DNA of 59,497 bases, the filler included, from Porpidia crustulata (Eukaryota), in NCBI GenBank assembly GCA_964255105.1. It is 8 parts of 8 records of this genome, joined end to end, with 100 filler letters (N's around TTAATTAATTAA, not from the genome) between each part and the next. Parts side by side here need not be neighbours in the genome. Positions count along the whole stretch, not along the records: positions 22,388 to 29,740 come from CAXUWE010001347.1; 7 more parts are not named here. One strand, 5' to 3'. Both the position numbers and the translations under genes were made by a program. The notes below the pieces were generated by a model, which saw only the letters and a list, made by a program, of their open reading frames with translations, ran no database searches and had not been told where the DNA came from. The number at the start of each line of letters is the position of its first letter. Positions within the stretch are counted from its first letter, which is position 1. Below, piece after piece: positions 7,367-52,163 of this stretch.

Positions 7367-7466
7367 NNNNNNNNNNNNNNNNNNNNNNNNNNNNNNNNNN
7401 NNNNNNNNNNTTAATTAATTAANNNNNNNNNNNNNNNNNNNNNNNNNNNNNNNNNNNNNNNNNNNN
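7367..7466. other. Artificial contig spacer
   Basis: 44 N + TTAATTAATTAA (stops in all frames) + 44 N. Confidence 0.99.
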
Positions 7467-14832: not shown

Positions 14833-14932
14833 NNNNNNNNNNNNNNNNNNNNNNNNNNNNNNNNNNNNNNNNNNNNTTAATTAATTAANNNNNNNNNNNN
14901 NNNNNNNNNNNNNNNNNNNNNNNNNNNNNNNN
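14833..14932. other. Artificial contig spacer
   Basis: N44-TTAATTAATTAA-N44. Confidence 0.99.
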
Positions 14933-22287: not shown

Positions 22288-22387
22288 NNNNNNNNNNNNN
22301 NNNNNNNNNNNNNNNNNNNNNNNNNNNNNNNTTAATTAATTAANNNNNNNNNNNNNNNNNNNNNNNNNNNNNNNNNNNNNNNNNNNN
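22288..22387. other. Artificial contig spacer
   Basis: N44-TTAATTAATTAA-N44. Confidence 0.99.
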
Positions 22388-22866
22388 GTGTTTGACGAAG
22401 CCGACGCCTTTGGGGAAGAGGTCGTCCCAGGCCTTGTTCGATTCGGGGCTGGGTTCGTGGGTGAAGGTGCGGTTGTAGATCCAGGGGGCTTTGATGGTGC
22501 CGACGGGTTGGAGGAGTTCTGGTGGGACGGGGGTTTAGAGTGAGTCTTTTGGGGGGTTCAGAGAAAACTCTGAGGAAACGTACTTTCGAGTGTTTGTGGA
22601 GCGATGGACTTGCGGTATCCGGCGTAGAAGCCTGCGGTGCCGGACATTGTCAAGGTTATTAGGAGGAGGAGGAGGAGGTAGGTGGTCGACCAGCCTCGGG
22701 GCGTTGAGGGTTGGGAAGGTGAGTTGAAGGAATCTTTGCTGCTGCTGTCTTCCGAGTTTCGAAGAGGTTCTTTGGCTTCCTCAAGAGTCGAGATCGGCGT
22801 ATACCGTTGGCCTTTGACGTATGAGAGAAAGGACTTCATGGTTCTTGATGATGATCTTGAAGACAT
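22388..22866 (-). CDS. DUF3328/UstYa-like oxidase, 5' half (truncated by the contig end before the HxxHC motifs)
   Basis: Hydrophilic N-terminus and a single TM helix (YLLLLLLITLTMSGTAGFYAG). Intron 22519-22583, then WIYNRTFTHEPSPESNKAWDDLFPKGVGFVKH, the PS-x-E-x-x-x-AW-x-x-L-x-P-x-G-x-GFV segment typical of DUF3328 proteins. Confidence 0.72.
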
Positions 22867-23312
22867 GGCTCTGATTTTTCTGCTGTAGAGACTCGATGCT
22901 TGTGGAGGAGATGGAAAAATGCCAAGGTGAAAGTAAATTGAACCTCGTGGTAGCTAATACGGCAAGTGAGTGCCAAAGTAGGTCTGGTCAAGAGTAGCAG
23001 TTGGGATCCATGCAATGCAAGCGTGCTTAAAGCAGCGAGGGGTCACACCCAAGACATTCTTCCGACTGCACGCTTTGAGTTCCCCGCCAAGTATAAAAAT
23101 CAAGATAGCCTTTGTTGATAGGGCGCCAAAGCATGCCCGTCAGTACAAAGTAAGCAGGTCGACCGCAGGACTGAAGCTTGCATTAGCGGTACTGTCCTCC
23201 TGGGTGGATGACCATGCCTATCGAGGTTTGACATATCAACCAAGGCCAGCGCCCAGGTTAGACTGGTCCCATTGAAAGTCGCAGTACTACTCACCGCATG
23301 ACTCCAGAGCTG

Positions 23313-23334
23313 CGGTCCACGGTCCACGGTCCAC
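23313..23334. promoter_or_regulatory. (CGGTCCA)x3 direct repeat at the centre of the divergent DUF3328/precursor promoter
   Basis: CGGTCCACGGTCCACGGTCCAC is seen directly. A Zn2Cys6-type CGG site is inference. Confidence 0.35.
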
Positions 23335-23769
23335 TGCTGACTGGTATGGAACGGTTTGACAGAAGCCACTTACGTCCGCAGGACCGGATTTCTAGAGGAA
23401 GAACACTATCCACTGCTAGTATCTGAGATGTCAATTGCATTGTACAAATGAAATTCAGTCGCTTATGCATACCTGTGAGAGTATTGGGTCACCTCCGACT
23501 TACTTGCAGGTCCAGGATCAACTGCTAGCAAGGAACCTACAACAACGGTGATTACCAGCGAGCACGCTATACCTACCGTAGGCTATCGAAATTGACGATA
23601 GGTTACTCCGAACCTGCGTCAGTCGGCTTCCTCCGTTTAACATATGCCTCTTCCTAAATCCTCATTCGTTACCGCCGTATATTCCCAGTCTTCCCCTTGA
23701 CCGTGAATCGAAGCAGCCTTTTCTCCGCAGAACCTTCCAATCGATAGCGAGCAATCGTATCCATTCAAC

Positions 23770-24375
23770 ATGAAAACCAATCTCTATCTGCGAGGACTTC
23801 TTATGTTGGCCGTGGTCGGTCATGCTCTTCCTGTTGACAATAGCAAGAGTAAATTTGGTAGCTAGCAAATGCTCTAAGTCTAAGGCTGACTCGGACCAGG
23901 CTTGAAACGCGAGGCTGCGGACGCCGATGATAAGGTCGTCTACACTTGGTCGCTCCCAGAAGAAAAGGCAAAGCGTGAGGCCGCAGATGCCGATGATAAG
24001 GTCGTTTACACCTGGTCTCTCCCCGAGGAAAAGACCAAACGAGAGGCAGCGGACGCCGACGACAAAGTAGTCTACACTTGGTCGCTCCCCGAAGAGAAAG
24101 CAAAGCGTGAAGCAGCCGACGCCGATGACAAGGTCGTCTACACCTGGTCTCTCCCAGAGGAAAAGACCAAACGAGAGGCAGCAGATGCTGACGACAAAGT
24201 CGTTTACACTTGGTCCCTTCCCGAAGAGAAGGCAAAGCGCGAGGCCGAAGCTGCGGATGCAGATGACAAGGTTGTCTACACATGGTCCCTCCCGGAGGAA
24301 AAGGCAAAGCGTGAGGCCGCCGATGCTGACGACAAGGTCGTCTACACCTGGTCCCTTCCGGAAGAGAAGAAATAG
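23770..24375 (+). CDS. Secreted Kex2-processed repeat protein (KEP) / putative dikaritin RiPP precursor, 184 aa, 7 repeats
   Basis: Exon 1 (23770-23848) encodes a signal-peptide-like MKTNLYLRGLLMLAVVGHA-LPVDNSK. Intron 23849-23899 (GTAAAT..GCTGAC..CAG) contains an in-frame stop. Exon 2 encodes 7 x KR-EA(EA)ADADDKVVYTWSLPEEK(A/T/K). Confidence 0.9.
23905..24372 (+). repeat. Coding tandem repeat, 66-bp unit x7 (one unit 72 bp)
   Basis: The units encode near-identical peptides with many third-position differences. Confidence 0.95.
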
Positions 24376-25135
24376 ACACAAAGATGGATAAGGCTTGACT
24401 AGGAGCAATATATGTTTATAGCCAAACTGGTCTTTCTAATAGCACTTGAGCGTGGGTGGAAGGCAATGAGCAGATCGTGCAGAAGACAACAATTTCGACA
24501 TCAAGTGTAAATCAATTATTCTTGCCAGCATGTTCATTTTTGGTTGCCGCTAGCCGTCCAATTATGAGCCCACAAAGTCGGAGAAACCGAGAATAAATAG
24601 ATTATATATGATGAAGAGGACAATGTGAGTGACAATTATCTGGGAGGTTTGGTGAATCTCACTTTCTCCCATCCTCAGCCTTCTCTCCGCGATGTTGTTG
24701 CACGTCCAAGAAATCAGGAGTATCATCATGGATTGATTTGATGCCTGGGCAAGTGTCTAAGATACACCCGCCATAAGATTAGGAAACGTGATGGACGAGT
24801 CGGGCAAACCTCACTGAGTTAATGGAGACTTGATAGCCAAAGGTCTGCTCCCAGGTCTACCATGTGGTCTCGAATAACCTCCGAATTATATTTGTCTTTG
24901 AAGCTGTAGGTTCGCTGGCAATACAAGCAGGTTGAATGTTTGCTAGCAAAAGCACCAGATTCTCAGTTTCTCGGGTTGTGTTGGTCATGAGACAAAGCTG
25001 TGCGGCGTGATCTCAACAGTTCCTTTAAAATCCCCTTGAGTCCACATAGTGAAACGAGGCTAGGTCGAAAGGTCTCAGCATCTCCTAAGGCTGGTAACCA
25101 AACAGTGGAACCAGTGCGGAGATTCTAATCCTTCG

Positions 25136-28135
25136 TCACCGTTTCACAAAATTGACGATTCTTCCTCCCTTCACGACTACTACTCTGTCCCAAGATTCGC
25201 GCTTCGACATCCACTTTTTTCCTGGATTTGTCTCCCCAATACGATTGAGAACCCATTTTTTCATTGCATTCTCCTTATCTTTCTTGAAAAATTCGGGCGG
25301 AGGATTTGGAATTTTAATCACGAAGCGCTTGTAACCATTCTCCTGAACCACACACATTTGACCGTCCGGCTCAAGCTTGGTAGCACTACCGTCAGGAGTG
25401 GGAAAAGAACCGTCGAATACGCTCGAAGTTGCCTCGCCCGTGTTTTTGTTCATCTGCTCCCAACACTCTTCGGTAAAAGCAGGGGCTACCGGAGCCATCA
25501 TGCCAAGAAGAGCTCTCGCCGTGTGATGTCGGACTTTGTAGCTTACATCGGTCGCAGAGAATATGATGTTAGTGAGCTTTATAAGGTCCGAAATAACCGT
25601 GTTCAGGGATATGGTGTCGGACAAGGATGCTGTGATGGACATGATTTTTTGCTGTAGCTGAAGCCATAGGTATTTCTCCGACGCAGTTGAAAGATCCTTT
25701 GACCAGTCAAAGCTGGTTGAGGACGACTCGCCTGACTCCAGATTACACAAATCATGGACTATACGCCACACTCGGCCATACCAGCGTTGTATACCAACAA
25801 TCCGCTCCTCTTCCCATTCTAGCACCTCACTGACAGGTGCTTGGAACAGGATGTGGGCCCTGGTTGTGTCAGCGCCATATTTTTTGATACATTCCATTGG
25901 GTCAACTCCATTATATTTGCTTTTGCTCATCTTCTCCCAGCTAATCTTGGGCGGCTGGCCACTCAGAAGTATTTTGGGCCTTAACTGGCTGCTGATGTCT
26001 ACTTCTTCAGGCTTCAGGAAGCGGCCGGTAACTGGGTCTGAGAAAGTCTTGCCATGGACCATTCCCTGATTGATAACTCTTTTGAACGGTTCCCCCCTAT
26101 TGCCGTCACCCCCACCTGAAGGCCAGAGAGGGGTAGTGGCAAGGAACTTTGCGATGAAGCGGGCATACAATAAATGGAGAATAGCATGCTCCACACCACC
26201 AACATATATGTCTACCGGCAATTGTTTTTCCGCAGCCTCAGGAGCGAACGGCAGCACGGTATTGTGAGTATCTACAAAACGCATGAAATACCACGAAGAA
26301 TCCATGAAAGTGTCCATTGTGTCGGTGTCACGTTTGGCGCTGCCGCGACAGTTGGGACAAGTTATGTTCACCCAATCTTCTGCAGACTCAAGAGGATTTC
26401 CAGCGCTACCTCCGAACCAACTTGCTTCAGCTTTGGGAAGTTCAACAGGCAAATCAGCCGCGGGCACAGGTACAGCACCACATTTCTGACAATGGATAAT
26501 GGGAATTGGTGTACCCCAATAGCGCTGACGACTGATTAACCAATCTCGTAAACCCCAAATCTCTTGTCTTTGTGCAAGGCCTCCAGCATCCGCCAGGTCA
26601 GAAATGAGCTTTTGTGAAGCATATTCCGACGTGAAACCAGCCATAGTACCACATATTGGTGTCAGTATCCCAAGCTGCTCGTAAGCTTCCGTGAGAATCT
26701 CGTCACCTGGTATGCTGTTACCCACACTCTGATCAGGAGGAGCGATGACCCGTCGAATCATTTCATCATCATTGTGCTCGCCCCAAAAGGCAAAATCGCG
26801 AGCGTCATGGGCAGGAACTCCCATGACTGCTCCATCTCCATAGCCCTCTAAAACGTACGGTGCAACGTAAACGGGTAAAGGCCATTTGCAGTAAAGAGGA
26901 CTACCTTCTAGGACTGATAGTGGGTTTGTGGCAGAAATATTTGGTAATAGATAGCCGGCTTTGGAATTAGGCGAGAGCAGAGGTGTACTTTCTATGAAAG
27001 CCTGGAGAGAAGAATCCTTGGCGGCTAATTCTGAGACGATCGGGTGAGATATTGACAGCGCAATGTACTGTACTCCATGTAAGGTATCTGACCTCGTAGT
27101 AAAGATTTCAACTGATTCGTTTTTTATGATTGTCGTAAGCAAGCGTCCTTTTGCGCTTCTCTCTTCAAATCTTAGCTCAATGGGAAATCGAACTTTCGCG
27201 CCATTGGATCTACCCAGCCAATTCCTCTGCATTGATAAAACTTTCTCAGGCCATCGGTTATCCTGGGCAAGGAGTTCCAAATCGTCGTAAAGAGCTTCTT
27301 TGAAGTCGGTAATTCGAAGGAACCATTGTTTTAGATTCAGTTTTTCAACTTTGGCACCGGATCTCCAAGAGCGACCGTTTGCGTCAACCTATCGACCGTT
27401 ATGCTGGGACTTTATTTTCATGCAGTATTGACTAACCTGCTCGTTTGCAAGCACAGTCTTGTCGATCGGGTCATAATTGACAAAAGCCTCAGCTTGATAG
27501 GCAAGACCCTGTTCGTACAGCATCAGAAAGAGACTTTGAGTGTGTTTGTAGAACGCTGGGTCGCATGTCATGAATTCCTAGATTACATAATTTGACTTAG
27601 TATGGAGACATGAAACGCGGGTATCTTTGTACGTATGCCAAAGGTTGATCAAAGGAGTATGCACTTTACTCCAATCGAAGCTTCCACCCATAGCTTGCAA
27701 TTGATTCTTCATATTTCCAATATTCTGCTTTGTCCATTCTGCAGGATTCACTCCTCTTTCAATGGCCGCATTCTCAGCCGGTAGTCCAAATGCATCCCAG
27801 CCCATGGGATGCAGAACATTATAACCTTGCATGCGCTTGAATCGTGCGAGCACATCTGAGATGGTGTAGACTCTGAGGTGGCCTATATGCAGAGTGCCAG
27901 AGGGATACGGGAACATAGGAAGAACGTAGAACTGAGATGAGGTCTGCTTCTCCACAGTACCATTCTCGGGAGTATTCGTCCATCGTTGGTGCCATTTCGC
28001 GTCGATGGATTGTAGGTCAAGGCGTGGCACGGAGCTTTTCGAGGCCTCGCTGTTGTAAAGTCTCAAGCGGCAACGAGAGGAACGCGTGCCAGATGAGCTC
28101 AATGGCTTGATGAGATATCGTAGTGCTGAAATCAT
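25136..28135 (-). CDS. NAM2: Mitochondrial leucyl-tRNA synthetase, 3 exons
   Basis: Presequence [26 protein letters not shown], then [53 protein letters not shown] and KMSKS. Confidence 0.95.
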
Positions 28136-28273
28136 CTGTATTGGATCGCGTCCGTCATCAAAGATTGTCGTTGCTCTCGACCTTTCTAACCGCTTAGGGG
28201 CTAGCCTTTGTGTTTCACGCAATACCGAAGTTAAATTGCTGGTAATGATTACGCTGTTCTTCTGATCTCAAAC

Positions 28274-29146
28274 ATGGATGCTGATATGGAGAGCCATATT
28301 CAGCCAGATCTAGAAATCAGCTCACGAATGGACCAGGAGCAGAGTCTAGAGTCCAACATTGAGTCAAGTCTACAGCCCTACCTACAACCTGATTCCGAGT
28401 TACATCAACAGCTCGCTTCAGCAGTGAACACGGAAGCAGTCGCGGACCCTCAACCCGAACCCAAGAAGAAGCGGAAGACAAAGCCCAAATCCGATGAGAA
28501 GCAAGAAATCAAGATCAGAAAACCTCACCAAAAAGAAGAAACCATAAAACTCATGCAGGCCAAGGTCCAAGGGACTATAGAATACCTCGGCGCCAAAGGG
28601 CTCCCGCACACCAAACAGGACGTCTTCGAACACTTTGGTATCGCACGCACTCGAGGCTACGAGATGCTCGGCAACCGCGACCGCCGGAAACGCAAGCCAG
28701 GCGACCCCGAAACTCGAGGCCGCCCGAGCAAGCTCTCGAAAGAAACCGTCAACCGTATGGACGAGATCCTGCAGGCGTGGGGCCTCGAGGGGAGAGCCAT
28801 GACCTGGAAGGAGCTGGCGGCCGAGGCGGAGGTGCCGCATGTTTCGTGGCGGACGATCCAGCGGACGATGCAGAAACGGGGATACCGGAGGTGCAAAGCG
28901 TGCAGCAAGACGTACGCTGCGCCGGATATGGCTGACGTCTCCTCGAACTTCACCCCGGTGGCAAGCCAGGGGAATTCGTACGTGTTTGGGGATGGAACAG
29001 TGCTTCAGCCAGAAAGCATGGAATTTGTCGCGGATCCTCGGCAGACGCTCAATCTCATGCAAAAGCCAGGGGAGAACCACTGCGCGAATTGCAATCAGCA
29101 ACCGAACGAGATTCCCGCTCCTCTTCATGCTCTCCCGCTCTCATGA
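28274..29146 (+). CDS. Protein containing a Tc1/mariner transposase-like N-terminal HTH region but no DDE catalytic domain
   Basis: KQDVFEHFGIARTRGYEML..ETRGRPSKLS..MTWKELAAEAEV..VSWRTIQRTMQKRGYRRCKAC resembles fungal Tc1-like transposase DNA-binding regions. NLS PKKKRK. The ORF is intact and intronless. Confidence 0.6.
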   Translation: MDADMESHIQPDLEISSRMDQEQSLESNIESSLQPYLQPDSELHQQLASAVNTEAVADPQPEPKKKRKTKPKSDEKQEIKIRKPHQKEETIKLMQAKVQGTIEYLGAKGLPHTKQDVFEHFGIARTRGYEMLGNRDRRKRKPGDPETRGRPSKLSKETVNRMDEILQAWGLEGRAMTWKELAAEAEVPHVSWRTIQRTMQKRGYRRCKACSKTYAAPDMADVSSNFTPVASQGNSYVFGDGTVLQPESMEFVADPRQTLNLMQKPGENHCANCNQQPNEIPAPLHALPLS

Positions 29147-29423
29147 ACTCAGGCTCCAAGGGCCAACATCCGAACCTCAGGAGTGCGTGCTTATCCCACA
29201 GAGGCACCACCAGCGTCCAAACTAACAGTAATGCAAGGCCGCAACCTCCACACAACCTCTATAATCAACCCGCTCCAAACCCCCCAAAGCCCGTAGCCTC
29301 AACCCCAGCGCCCCAACGCCAGCGCCCTTACGCGAGCCCCACCACAGCCCACCCACCCCAACCCCCCACCCCCCCCCCGCCACACCCCCCCCCCGCCGGC
29401 GCGGGGGGCGGCCCCCCCCCCCA

Positions 29424-29740
29424 CGGCCGTCCCACCTCGAATCCCAACGTGCTAATCGAGTTCGGGTACGCGCTTGCCAGCCTAGGGCCGGAACGGGTCA
29501 TTGGGGTCGTAAATGCGACCTACGGCACACCGACGAACGTCAGCCTTCCATTCAACCTCGCGCACACGCGGTTTCCGATCGCTTACACTCTCGCGGAGAG
29601 CGCCAGCGAAGAGGAGAGGAAAGCTGCCCGAAGCGAGCTGAGCAAAAAGTTCGAGGGCGCTCTGCGCACTGTGTTTGAAAGCGCAGGGTACAAAGCTCGG
29701 GTTGCGTCAGGACGTCCGCCATCTTCCCTTGAGATTGCTG
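29424..29740 (+). other. Bacterial-like coding fragment (NPNVxxExGYA; TIR-like/nucleoside deoxyribosyltransferase-like fold), probably a chimeric contig end
   Basis: PTSNPNVLIEFGYALASLGPERVIGVVNATYG..LPFNLAHTRFPIAYTL. It is joined to fungal DNA through a poly-C/poly-G tract (about 29340-29423). Confidence 0.6.
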
Positions 29741-29840
29741 NNNNNNNNNNNNNNNNNNNNNNNNNNNNNNNNNNNNNNNNNNNNTTAATTAATTAANNNN
29801 NNNNNNNNNNNNNNNNNNNNNNNNNNNNNNNNNNNNNNNN
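29741..29840. other. Artificial contig spacer
   Basis: N44-TTAATTAATTAA-N44. Confidence 0.99.
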
Positions 29841-37185: not shown

Positions 37186-37285
37186 NNNNNNNNNNNNNNN
37201 NNNNNNNNNNNNNNNNNNNNNNNNNNNNNTTAATTAATTAANNNNNNNNNNNNNNNNNNNNNNNNNNNNNNNNNNNNNNNNNNNN
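37186..37285. other. Artificial contig spacer
   Basis: N44-TTAATTAATTAA-N44. Confidence 0.99.
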
Positions 37286-44627: not shown

Positions 44628-44727
44628 NNNNNNNNNNNNNNNNNNNNNNNNNNNNNNNNNNNNNNNNNNNNTTAATTAATTAANNNNNNNNNNNNNNNNN
44701 NNNNNNNNNNNNNNNNNNNNNNNNNNN
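44628..44727. other. Artificial contig spacer
   Basis: N44-TTAATTAATTAA-N44. Confidence 0.99.
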
Positions 44728-45518: not shown

Positions 45519-45867
45519 AGAGTGGTGACGATACCGAATTGGAAGTAGTTTGGGTTGAAGCCCGGTCTGGAGACGGCCGTACCTGGGGTATTTGGGGCGC
45601 CTGGCTACTGACTGGTTTGAGACATAGCGAATGATCCGAAACGCTCTTGTCGGGCTTGTGACGCGCGATGAGGGTACCATGAGCGAACTATATATTGCCA
45701 TTACTTCAGTCGAGCTGTCTATGGACAAGCTCCCTTATTTCTTTCACTGCGTTGACTATGTCAAGCAGAACATTCTATGCCAAGCTGATATCACGCTCGA
45801 GTGGCGGTCCGAGTCCAACCCGGAGCATGTTGGTGGCTATGGAATTCCACATCAGTGCCGCAACTGG
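45519..45867 (+). pseudogene. Degenerate DUF3328/UstYa gene
   Basis: FHCVDYVKQNILCQADITLEW and GYGIPHQCRNW match the DUF3328 C-terminal consensus (HC-DY-RQ-I-C-AD-TLE; GWG-H-CRDW). Upstream VVTIPNWK*FGLKPG has stops, and the first HxxHC is lost. Confidence 0.8.
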
Positions 45868-46368
45868 GTAAGTTGAATACGCGATCCGCATGGCATGAGC
45901 TGCCGGCTGAGTAACGAAGTGCGCAGGGATGGTGGAGAATTATCCTACAGACCCAGCGTATCAGGTCTCTCGCTAGTGCCGTCAACCTGAGGCGCTCCAT
46001 TAGGCTTTTGGTACCTACTCACCTGCTACACTTAGCGAGTCTGGGCTCTTTTCGTCTTGCGGTCGAAAAGAGAAAATTAATGTGCAGGGTACGTAGTGGG
46101 ACAATGTGAACTGTATGACTTGGCGTACTTTAGGCAAGGCATCAATAAGATCCGGCGTTAAAGAGCTGGTTTTGGCGTCGCTCAGATGAGATGTTGAATG
46201 GCCAGCCACACTGCTTACGTTAACCCCTCAAAACCTCTAGTGTCATCACCTTGACCTCAGACGTATCTGTCGCAAGGCTGCTCTCGACCATTATGCCACC
46301 AGCCACTGCGATACTCATTTCCACGATTTCAATCCTTGATTGCGCACGATCCTGTTAGTCACCAAGCA

Positions 46369-52063: not shown

Positions 52064-52163
52064 NNNNNNNNNNNNNNNNNNNNNNNNNNNNNNNNNNNNN
52101 NNNNNNNTTAATTAATTAANNNNNNNNNNNNNNNNNNNNNNNNNNNNNNNNNNNNNNNNNNNN
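52064..52163. other. Artificial contig spacer
   Basis: N44-TTAATTAATTAA-N44. Confidence 0.99.

What the first reader, a model, noticed from the sequence alone, without database searches (positions are those of the whole stretch)
22388..24375. Candidate new fungal RiPP (dikaritin-type) locus: 7-repeat VVYTWS precursor head-to-head with a DUF3328 oxidase
Seen: a spliced 184-aa protein with a signal-like leader and seven KR-delimited repeats EAADADDKVVYTWSLPEEKx. It is transcribed divergently, across about 900 bp, from a single-TM protein carrying the PSPESNKAWDDLFPKGVGFV segment. The ORF track misses the precursor's signal exon and the second DUF3328 exon. Established: ustiloxin, phomopsin, asperipin-2a and victorin derive from Kex2-processed repeat precursors with acidic spacers, and clustered DUF3328/UstYa enzymes oxidatively macrocyclise them, often via Tyr. 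Inference: the hydrophobic, aromatic core (K)VVYTWS(LP), framed by acidic residues, is cyclised via Tyr and/or Trp. It matches none of the cores I know (YAIG/YVIG, YVIPID, FYYTGY), so the product may be undescribed. More cluster genes probably lie beyond the contig break at 22388.
Basis: partly seen in the sequence, partly recalled or inferred. Interest (0 to 1): 0.92.

Follow-up and report, generated by a model that had tools for sequence, protein, structure and literature searches.

The report
Fungal repeat-peptide gene beside UstYa oxidase
A fungal gene encoding seven identical copies of a short secreted peptide sits back-to-back with a copper-oxidase-type gene of the family that cyclises mycotoxin-like peptides, so it is a real, conserved but chemically uncharacterised member of a well-known kind of peptide natural-product locus.

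Summary
A two-exon gene (23770-24375, +) encodes a 184-aa protein: a signal-like leader, then seven KR-delimited repeats. The 17-aa block ADADDKVVYTWSLPEEK is identical in all seven; all 15 variable DNA columns are third codon positions.

903 bp away, on the other strand, lies a single-TM gene cut by the contig end. Pfam finds nothing in its fragments. However, a profile of 22 PF11807-positive orthologues hits its second exon at 58 bits. Syntenic relatives carry the whole gene with both HxxHC motifs.

The precursor-UstYa pairing recurs in L001, the L002-L010 group, L011 and Cudoniella acicularis (tags g9557/g9558). L002 and L011 add a second UstYa gene beyond the window's break. L012 shows no UstYa.

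The repeat D-[GA]-D-D-x-V-V-Y-T-W-[SA]-x-P is conserved in Leotiomycetes, Eurotiomycetes and Lecanoromycetes.

Verdict: a genuine dikaritin-type (KEP plus DUF3328) RiPP locus and a new member of a known kind. The product and cross-link are unknown. No print match to the core was found. Thousands of such loci are already catalogued, so interest is moderate, not 0.92.

The parts
23770..23848 (+). Precursor exon 1: start codon and signal-like leader (MKTNLYLRGLLMLAVVGHA|LPVDNSK, then phase-1 splice)
   Evidence: splice model, 555 nt, in frame; orthologous exon conserved in L001 and L002 (MRVTLYLRGFLALAAVGNALPIDGSK / MRANLYLRGFLALAVVANALPVDSSK) with the same GTAAA donor. The signal peptide is judged by eye (basic n-region, hydrophobic core, small residues at -3/-1); no SignalP was run.
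23849..23899 (+). Precursor intron (51 nt; GTAAAT donor, CTGAC branch-like site, CAG acceptor)
   Evidence: position conserved in L001/L002, sequence more diverged than the exons. L011 has an intron at the same relative place. No RNA evidence.
23900..24375 (+). Precursor exon 2: SLKR, then seven repeats EAADADDKVVYTWSLPEEK(A/T)KR; stop at 24373-24375
23911..24372 (+). The seven repeat units (23911-23976, 23977-24042, 24043-24108, 24109-24174, 24175-24240, 24241-24312, 24313-24372)
   Evidence: coordinates; synonymous-only variation. (TRF score 589).
22867..23769 (.). 903-bp spacer between the two divergent start codons; presumed shared promoter region
   Evidence: Alignable at about 70% nt identity with the L002-L010 spacer. 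Promoter function is inferred only.
22584..22866 (-). UstYa-type gene exon 1: cytosolic N-terminus and one TM helix (about 22689-22618, WSTTYLLLLLLITLTMSGTAGFYAG); orthologues start at the second Met (22839)
   Evidence: Orthologous exon in L001 and L002. No Pfam hit on this piece.
22519..22583 (-). UstYa-type gene intron 1 (65 nt, GTACGT...CAG, phase 1)
   Evidence: Same position and phase in L002.
22388..22518 (-). UstYa-type gene exon 2, cut by the contig end about 20 residues before the first HxxHC motif
   Evidence: 15 homologues, best E 2.6e-10. (8 of 15 pass PF11807). (orthogroup HMM 58.4 bits, HMM positions 66-109 of 218). (orthologues continue ...HPTISPxLSGLAVFHELHC).

Best explanation
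This is a dikaritin-type fungal RiPP locus, i.e. a Kex2-processed repeat protein (KEP) plus DUF3328/UstYa enzymes.

Proposed pathway:
1. The 184-aa precursor enters the ER through its signal peptide.
2. A membrane-anchored UstYa-family oxidase, with its catalytic domain in the lumen, modifies each of the seven identical units. In relatives a second, adjacent UstYa paralogue is present and probably takes part.
3. Kex2-type cleavage after the KR pairs, followed by exopeptidase trimming, releases seven copies of one modified peptide. That peptide is built on the conserved block D-[GA]-D-D-x-V-V-Y-T-W-[SA]-x-P-E.
4. The most likely chemistry is an oxidative side-chain macrocycle. It would involve the invariant Tyr and a residue two positions away, either Trp at +2 or Val at -2. 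This is by analogy with the Tyr-x-Ile ether ring of ustiloxins and phomopsins.

What is shown:
- Gene structure, repeat identity and purifying selection.
- UstYa-family membership of the neighbour by homology.
- Conserved linkage in several lineages.

What is inferred:
- Secretion and Kex2 cleavage.
- That the UstYa proteins act on this peptide.
- The nature and position of the cross-link, and the boundaries of the mature peptide.
For: 1. Precursor anatomy: leader plus seven KR-delimited identical units, 15 of 15 variable nucleotide columns synonymous.

2. Family conservation:
- 14 homologous small proteins were found. Those named by a source come from Cudoniella acicularis (2), Aspergillus aculeatus and Letharia columbiana, three classes of Pezizomycotina.
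- In the 45 repeat units extracted by a pattern that requires D1, D3, D4, Y8 and W10, V6 and V7 are each 43 of 45, T9 is 40 of 45 and P13 is 44 of 45.
- Independently of that pattern, the MAFFT alignment marks D, D, D, Y and W as invariant columns.

3. The core outlasts a housekeeping gene. The neighbouring leucyl-tRNA synthetase is only 68.6% identical in protein between the window and L002, yet the 13-aa core is identical in 5 of 5 L002 repeats. In L001 all 6 repeats carry it, some with DGDD in place of DADD.

4. Neighbour identity:
- The exon-2 fragment hits 15 representatives at E<=1e-3. Of these, 8 pass the PF11807 cut-off and 11 have some PF11807 match.
- An orthogroup HMM gives 58.4 bits, E 6.2e-17 among 1244 window ORFs.
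- The L002 orthologue has FHELHC and HHLRHC, and its exon 3 scores 59.4 bits on PF11807.

5. Linkage:
- The same divergent pair occurs in L001, in L002-L009 and in L011. L010 holds only the start of the UstYa gene.
- In Cudoniella acicularis, precursor G7Y89_g9557 and UstYa G7Y89_g9558 have consecutive tags and the same 25,807-bp contig length.
- A second PF11807 gene lies tail-to-tail with the first in L002 (36, 41 and 51 bits on three exon pieces) and in L011 (56.5 bits).

6. Established knowledge, as read:
- DUF3328 proteins are required for cyclisation of ustiloxins, asperipin-2a and phomopsins, through an ether bond at the Tyr ring.
- DUF3328 genes peak at the position next to KEP genes (PMC7329392, passages).
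- DUF3328 is a membrane-associated binuclear-copper enzyme family using HxxHC...HxxHC (PMC12435403, abstract).
Against: - Pfam PF11807 gave no match, even at E<=10, to the window's own two fragments.
- The catalytic half of the gene is missing from the window. The contigs of the one public run that holds this DNA break at the same place. An intact enzyme in this organism is therefore not shown.
- No second UstYa, tyrosinase, methyltransferase, transporter or peptidase is seen in the window's contig. No Pfam match other than the two UstYa genes was found in the ORFs scanned from the 6 kb upstream of the L002 precursor. The stretch beyond L002 position 11107 was not scanned.
- One related locus, L012, holds inverted precursor-like fragments and no UstYa in 6.1 kb.
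- Adjacency could not be tested for the second Cudoniella precursor (g9741), for A. aculeatus, for Letharia or for the unnamed proteins.
- DUF3328 enzymes also hydroxylate, halogenate and desaturate (PMC12435403 abstract), so a macrocycle is not guaranteed.
- There is no RNA or chemical evidence.
Confidence: 0.8

Rival explanations
1. The KEP yields unmodified linear secreted peptides (a signalling or pheromone-like function), and the UstYa neighbour acts on something else.
For: 78% of catalogued KEPs have no DUF3328 gene nearby, and many are thought to give linear peptides (PMC7329392, passages). L012 shows precursor-like repeats without UstYa in 6.1 kb. No chemistry is available.
Against: The immediately adjacent divergent arrangement recurs in the window, L001, L002-L009, L011 and Cudoniella. 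No other candidate substrate gene (NRPS etc.) appears in the 12 kb of L002. No Pfam mating-factor family appeared among the 15 matches at E<=10. Mating-factor KEPs are almost never accompanied by DUF3328 (PMC7329392).
Confidence: 0.1
2. The peptide is modified by the UstYa enzymes, but not by a Tyr-based macrocycle. Examples are hydroxylation or desaturation, or a Trp-centred cross-link such as indole N or C to an sp3 carbon.
For: DUF3328 proteins perform hydroxylation, halogenation and macrocyclisation (PMC12435403 abstract). Both Tyr and Trp are invariant. The tetrapeptide VYTW also ends the plant lyciumin I/legumenin core QPYGVYTW. There, a copper BURP cyclase links Trp-N to Gly and Tyr-O to pyroGlu (PMC11253845 and PMC12164859, passages).
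Against: All chemically known KEP/DUF3328 products read about here are closed through a Tyr ether (PMC7329392 passages; PMC9233826 passages). The VYTW match is only four residues and may be chance.
Confidence: 0.25
3. The repeat protein is a folded or structural secreted protein (PKD-like repeats), not a cleaved precursor.
For: Pfam PKD (PF00801) scores 31.6 bits against a 23.5 cut-off, E 1.6e-7.
Against: The match covers 17 of 80 profile positions (25-41) and is summed over seven copies of one short motif. The units are 20-24 aa, far too short for a PKD fold. They are delimited by KR pairs, and homologues have only 2-3 units.
Confidence: 0.02
4. The locus is decayed in this organism: the UstYa gene is a truncated pseudogene, and the break at 22388 reflects real loss rather than an assembly gap.
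For: Neither the window nor the contigs of the one run that holds it contain the 3' half of the gene or the second UstYa.
Against: The precursor is fully intact with seven perfect repeats, the highest number seen. The retained UstYa exons are open and, by my count, 38 of 43 residues identical to the L002 orthologue. The closest relative's contig, L001, also simply ends in the same gene, at locus position 56, which points to an assembly problem.
Confidence: 0.08

Closest known systems
Asperipin-2a locus of Aspergillus flavus (KEP precursor with a single DUF3328 oxidase, no tyrosinase)
   Same: Signal peptide plus KR-delimited repeats with an aromatic core containing Y-T. A small cluster with DUF3328 as the key enzyme. 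No tyrosinase in the DNA held here.
   Different: Here the core is V-V-Y-T-W with invariant Trp and an invariant acidic D-x-D-D prefix. Relatives have two UstYa paralogues, not one. The conserved unit is 13-15 aa, longer than a hexapeptide core. The product is unknown.
Ustiloxin (UstA/UstYa/UstYb) and phomopsin (PhomA/PhomYa-e) dikaritin clusters
   Same: Kex2-processed multi-core precursor. Two or more UstYa-family genes next to it. Tyr in the core with a candidate partner two residues away, as in Y-x-I (PMC7329392 passages).
   Different: No tyrosinase, methyltransferase, transporter or peptidase within the roughly 6 kb on each side in the relative. Tyr is internal rather than N-terminal to the core. 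Trp replaces Ile at +2.
Plant burpitides lyciumin I / legumenin (core QPYGVYTW; copper-dependent BURP cyclase)
   Same: The shared tetrapeptide VYTW. Both are handled by (di)copper, O2-dependent enzymes that couple Tyr-O or Trp-N to unactivated carbons (PMC11253845 and PMC12164859 passages; PMC12435403 abstract). This is a 'works like' lead only.
   Different: Unrelated enzyme fold and kingdom. In the plants read about here the core sits inside the BURP-domain protein itself. There is no evidence of homology.
Lichen Parmeliaceae DUF3328 clans R1/R2 (PMC12048977)
   Same: DUF3328 signature genes with two HxxHC motifs in Lecanoromycetes. Clan R1 has two signature genes (sections 14-15). The present family has a Letharia (Parmeliaceae) member.
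   Different: Clan R1 has a tyrosinase upstream and an O-methyltransferase between the two DUF3328 genes, and no repeat precursor was found. Here the two UstYa genes are directly adjacent, and a clear repeat precursor is present.

Membership tests
Kex2-processed repeat protein (KEP) | N-terminal secretion signal | tested here: inconclusive
   Exon 1 gives a basic n-region, a hydrophobic core and G-H-A|L-P. The layout is conserved in orthologues and homologues. No signal-peptide predictor was available.
Kex2-processed repeat protein (KEP) | Three or more near-identical repeats separated by dibasic (KR) sites | tested here: met
   Seven units, six ending in KR.
Dikaritin-type RiPP locus (KEP + DUF3328) | DUF3328/UstYa (PF11807) gene close to the precursor gene | tested here: met
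   The divergent gene is 903 bp away. Pfam on its fragments gave no hit. However, homologues are PF11807 (8 of 15 above cut-off), the orthogroup HMM gives 58.4 bits, and the syntenic orthologue scores 59.4 bits on PF11807.
Dikaritin-type RiPP locus (KEP + DUF3328) | Two HxxHC motifs in the DUF3328 protein | tested here: inconclusive
   Not in the window: the contig ends about 20 residues before the first motif, and none of the six H..HC matches in the six-frame scan has a UstYa-like context. Both are present in the L002-L009 orthologues (FHELHC, HHLRHC) and in P0016, P0043 and P0047.
Dikaritin-type RiPP locus (KEP + DUF3328) | Accessory genes of the original definition: tyrosinase, methyltransferase, transporter or peptidase (as quoted in PMC12048977) | tested here: not met
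   None was found in the window contig or among the ORFs scanned from L002 1-6400. These genes are not obligatory: the asperipin-2a and U. virens ustiloxin clusters lack some of them (PMC12048977 passages). More distant genes could not be fetched.
Dikaritin-type RiPP locus (KEP + DUF3328) | Product is a side-chain macrocyclic peptide made from the repeat core | not testable with these tools
   Needs expression and mass spectrometry or NMR.
Fungal alpha-type mating pheromone precursor | Match to a mating-factor family or pheromone core | tested here: not met
   No mating-factor family is among the 15 Pfam matches at E<=10. That pheromone KEPs lack DUF3328 neighbours comes from PMC7329392.
PKD domain protein (PF00801) | Full ~80-residue domain | tested here: not met
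   The score is above cut-off, but only profile positions 25-41 of 80 match, repeated. Units are 20-24 aa.

The most novel reading that the evidence does not exclude
This is a pan-Pezizomycotina dikaritin subfamily. Its unusually conserved 13-15-residue unit (DGDD-x-VVYTW-S-x-PE) would be cross-linked through the invariant Trp, either as a Tyr-Trp link or as Trp/Tyr to a Val sp3 carbon. That chemistry has not been reported for DUF3328 copper enzymes and would be convergent with the plant burpitides, whose lyciumin I core also ends in VYTW. The acidic DGDD would serve as an in-unit recognition or metal-binding element rather than a mere spacer.
Probability: 0.2. Interest if true: 0.75.

Novelty: new member of a known kind. 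Interest (0 to 1): 0.5.

Why it matters
Only a handful of fungal KEP/DUF3328 products have known structures (ustiloxins, phomopsins, asperipin-2a, victorin, epichloecyclins), although about 1758 such loci have been catalogued.

This family is an attractive target for four reasons:
- The cluster looks minimal: a precursor plus two UstYa genes.
- The core is conserved across three fungal classes, more strictly than a neighbouring tRNA synthetase.
- It contains an invariant Tyr-x-Trp pair not seen in the characterised cores.
- At least one culturable, sequenced species (Aspergillus aculeatus ATCC 16872) carries a member.

Solving the product would extend the known reaction scope of the newly recognised binuclear-copper DUF3328 enzymes.

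Tried and rejected
- Pfam on the window's UstYa fragments (102 aa and 49 aa): no family at E<=10.
- The search for homologous proteins with the 49-aa fragment, 'longer' lengths: 1 candidate, no hit.
- ESM Atlas on the 43-aa fragment: best score 0.84, unnamed clusters, uninformative.
- Own genome: not held.
- Records behind the metagenome loci: not held, so DNA beyond 6 kb from the relatives' precursor could not be read.
- The listing of cluster members: switched off. Locus tags were taken from the search for homologous proteins instead.
- Sequencing runs: one holder, and no RNA holder listed. Its contigs break at 22472-22622 and give no cover of 22388-22461, no loose end and no joint. So there is no extension of the contig and no splice evidence.
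- Six-frame H..HC scan and tblastn of the relatives' UstYa exons against the window: the missing 3' half and the second UstYa are not on any of the eight contigs.
- Earlier findings of the scan: nothing related.
- PDB sequence search with the Cudoniella UstYa: no relative at E<=1.
- Literature:
  - Core strings VVYTW, VYTWS, VAYTWA, VVYTWA, YTWSLP and DDKVVY gave 4 unrelated papers.
  - Tyr-Thr-Trp, Val-Tyr-Thr-Trp, YTWSLPE, YTWAVPE and VYTW gave only the plant lyciumin core as a relevant hit.
  - 'dikaritin' from 2023 gave 13 papers, none evidently on this core judging by listing and abstracts.
  - The supplements of PMC7329392 hold no such string. Its Table S2 lists KEPs by accession without sequences. 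It names nine A. aculeatus KEPs, five with DUF3328 nearby, that I could not map to ASPACDRAFT_76432. The family may therefore already be counted there.
  - Nagano et al. 2016 is not in the library.
- Identity with lichen clans R1/R2: rejected on gene content.
- PKD-domain reading: rejected.
- Complex prediction was not used, because enzyme-substrate pairs are stated to be poor cases for it.
Full report
WHAT IS THERE

The window is not one piece of DNA. It is eight contigs of about 7.35 kb, joined by linkers of 44 N, TTAATTAATTAA and 44 N. The finding lies at the left end of the contig 22388-29740.

On the + strand a two-exon gene gives a 184-aa protein. Exon 1 is 23770-23848, the intron is 23849-23899 and exon 2 is 23900-24375. 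The protein has a signal-like leader (MKTNLYLRGLLMLAVVGHA|LPVDNSK), then SLKR, then seven units EAADADDKVVYTWSLPEEK(A/T)KR. One unit carries an extra EA, and the last ends in KK-stop.

Tandem Repeats Finder reports period 66 x 6.9 copies at only 76% nucleotide matches. Yet the 17-aa block ADADDKVVYTWSLPEEK is identical in all seven copies. The 21 pairs differ at a mean of 8.7 of 51 bases with no amino-acid change, and all 15 variable columns are third codon positions.

THE NEIGHBOUR

A gene on the - strand starts 903 bp to the left (ATG 22866; orthologues start at the Met at 22839).
- Exon 1 (to 22584) encodes a polar N-terminus and one TM helix.
- A 65-nt intron (22583-22519) follows.
- Exon 2 (22518-22388) reads (K)LLQPVGTIKAPWIYNRTFTHEPSPESNKAWDDLFPKGVGFVKH and is then cut by the contig end.

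Pfam finds nothing in either fragment, even at E<=10. A word-indexed search with the 49-aa piece also found nothing. A full HMMER scan of 1.84 billion representatives with the 43-aa exon found 15 proteins at E<=1e-3, the best at 2.6e-10. Of these 15:
- 8 pass the curated PF11807 (UstYa/DUF3328) cut-off;
- 3 more have sub-threshold PF11807 matches;
- 4 have none, one of them an unrelated 1652-aa protein.

In each full-length hit the fragment aligns just N-terminal of the first HxxHC motif. A profile that I built from 22 PF11807-positive relatives of the best full-length hit scores the window's exon-2 ORF at 58.4 bits (E 6.2e-17 among 1244 window ORFs). It covers profile positions 66-109 of 218. 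The gene is thus a UstYa-family member by homology, but its catalytic half is not in the window.

RELATIVES AND LINKAGE

The precursor has 14 homologues of 85-157 aa. Those named by a source come from Cudoniella acicularis (two), Aspergillus aculeatus ATCC 16872 and Letharia columbiana. These represent Leotiomycetes, Eurotiomycetes and Lecanoromycetes.

I extracted 45 repeat units with a pattern that fixes D1, D3, D4, Y8 and W10. Among them V6 and V7 are each 43 of 45, T9 is 40 of 45 and P13 is 44 of 45. An unconstrained MAFFT alignment independently marks D, D, D, Y and W as invariant.

Several precursors end one to three residues after P-E. In A. aculeatus, KR is followed directly by E-DGDD. 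The functional unit therefore probably lies within (E)DGDDxVVYTW[SA]xPE. This is my inference.

A scan of metagenome contigs gave 12 loci.
- L002-L010 are near-identical to each other and syntenic with the whole window contig at about 70% nucleotide identity. The order is UstYa, spacer, precursor with five repeats, leucyl-tRNA synthetase, next gene.
- L001 is closer (about 76%) and has six repeats.
- In L002 the orthologous UstYa is complete in three exons, with ...VFHELHC|V and ...PHHLRHCFDYLRQ. Its exon 3 scores 59.4 bits on PF11807.
- A second PF11807 gene lies tail-to-tail with it, scoring 36.1, 40.6 and 50.7 bits on three exon pieces that cover profile positions 3-220.
- L011 is a more distant relative with two DGDDQVVYTWSLP repeats. 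It has the same three-gene order.

Against this stand three points. L012 (GC 0.40) holds inverted precursor-like fragments and no UstYa in 6.1 kb. L010 is too short to show more than the start of the UstYa gene. For the other named precursors the context could not be fetched.

The window's leucyl-tRNA synthetase is only 68.6% identical in protein to that of L002, whereas the 13-residue core is identical. The peptide is thus more constrained than a housekeeping enzyme.

HOW IT MOST LIKELY WORKS

As read in the papers:
- KEP precursors with DUF3328 neighbours give ustiloxins, phomopsins and asperipin-2a, closed by an ether at the Tyr ring.
- DUF3328 genes peak at the position next to the KEP gene (PMC7329392, passages; PMC9233826, passages).
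- DUF3328 proteins are membrane-associated, O2-dependent binuclear-copper enzymes using the HxxHC...HxxHC motif (PMC12435403, abstract).

I therefore propose ER entry of the precursor, oxidative modification of each unit by the membrane-anchored UstYa enzyme(s) in the secretory pathway, Kex2 cleavage after KR, and trimming. The most likely modification is a macrocycle from the invariant Tyr to a residue two positions away, Trp at +2 or Val at -2, echoing the Tyr-x-Ile of ustiloxin. None of these steps is shown here.

A Trp-centred link is a live alternative. The plant lyciumin I/legumenin core QPYGVYTW ends in the same VYTW. A copper BURP cyclase cross-links it through Trp-N and Tyr-O. That four-residue match may be coincidence.

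COMPARISON AND NOVELTY

The locus meets the KEP definition. It also meets the class-defining dikaritin feature, a DUF3328 gene beside a repeat precursor. It lacks the tyrosinase, methyltransferase and transporter of the original definition in the DNA that could be read. In that respect it resembles the asperipin-2a cluster more than ustiloxin or phomopsin.

No text in the searchable library contains the core. None of the 13 'dikaritin' papers from 2023 on evidently treats it. The KEP catalogue of PMC7329392 lists 7878 KEPs, 1758 with DUF3328 nearby, by accession only. The A. aculeatus member may be among the nine listed for that strain.

I file it as a new member of a known kind. It is well supported and attractive for genome mining: a minimal cluster, a core conserved across classes and an invariant Y-x-W. 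It would not surprise a specialist. Interest 0.5.

LIMITS

There is no RNA evidence and no signal-peptide predictor was available. The UstYa 3' half is missing, and the one public run that holds the DNA breaks at the same place. Context could be read for only some homologues.

Noticed in passing
window 7367-7466, 14833-14932, 22288-22387, 29741-29840, 37186-37285, 44628-44727, 52064-52163: The window is eight separate contigs of about 7.35 kb, joined by N44-TTAATTAATTAA-N44 linkers. Neighbours across a linker are not genomic neighbours.
   Followed up: yes
window 45628-45876 (+): Another UstYa/DUF3328 fragment lies on a different contig (PF11807 35.8 bits...FHCVDYVKQNILCQADITLE...). It is only about 45% identical to the orthologue's exon 3, so it is a different paralogue, not the missing half. 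No tandem peptide repeat was found on that contig.
   Followed up: partly
window 25136-28267 (-): A leucyl-tRNA synthetase (editing, catalytic and anticodon-binding domains) lies directly downstream of the precursor. It is syntenic in L001-L010 at about 69% protein identity. It is most simply a housekeeping neighbour; a self-resistance role is pure speculation.
   Followed up: partly
window 28235-29146 (+): A 303-aa basic, Lys/Arg-rich ORF without any Pfam match is conserved in L002-L009 at 61-64% protein identity.
   Followed up: no
L012 2765-3398: Two precursor-like fragments (DADDTVVYTWAVPEEKR..., DADDSVVYAWAV...) lie in inverted orientation inside a larger inverted duplication. GC is 0.40, and no UstYa is present in the 6.1 kb. 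This is possibly a decayed or rearranged copy, or an assembly artefact.
   Followed up: partly
window 23905-24372 (+): Pfam PKD (PF00801) passes its cut-off (31.6 against 23.5 bits) solely through seven copies of a 17-residue match to the D-x-D-G-x-I-x-Y-x-W part of the profile. It is an example of a repeat-summed false domain call.
   Followed up: yes
L002 2407-3431 (+) and L011 1-483 (+): A second UstYa paralogue lies tail-to-tail with the first. Its second motif seems to be split by an intron (...PAHI | ...DHCIEMLR). It may pair with the first enzyme, as CctR is a dimer with copper at the interface. This was not tested.
   Followed up: partly
L002 3749-4343: A G-rich/C-rich low-complexity stretch (runs read as poly-Gly on one strand and poly-Pro on the other) lies just 3' of the UstYa orthologue. 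It may be why assemblies of the window's organism and of L001 break in or near this gene.
   Followed up: no
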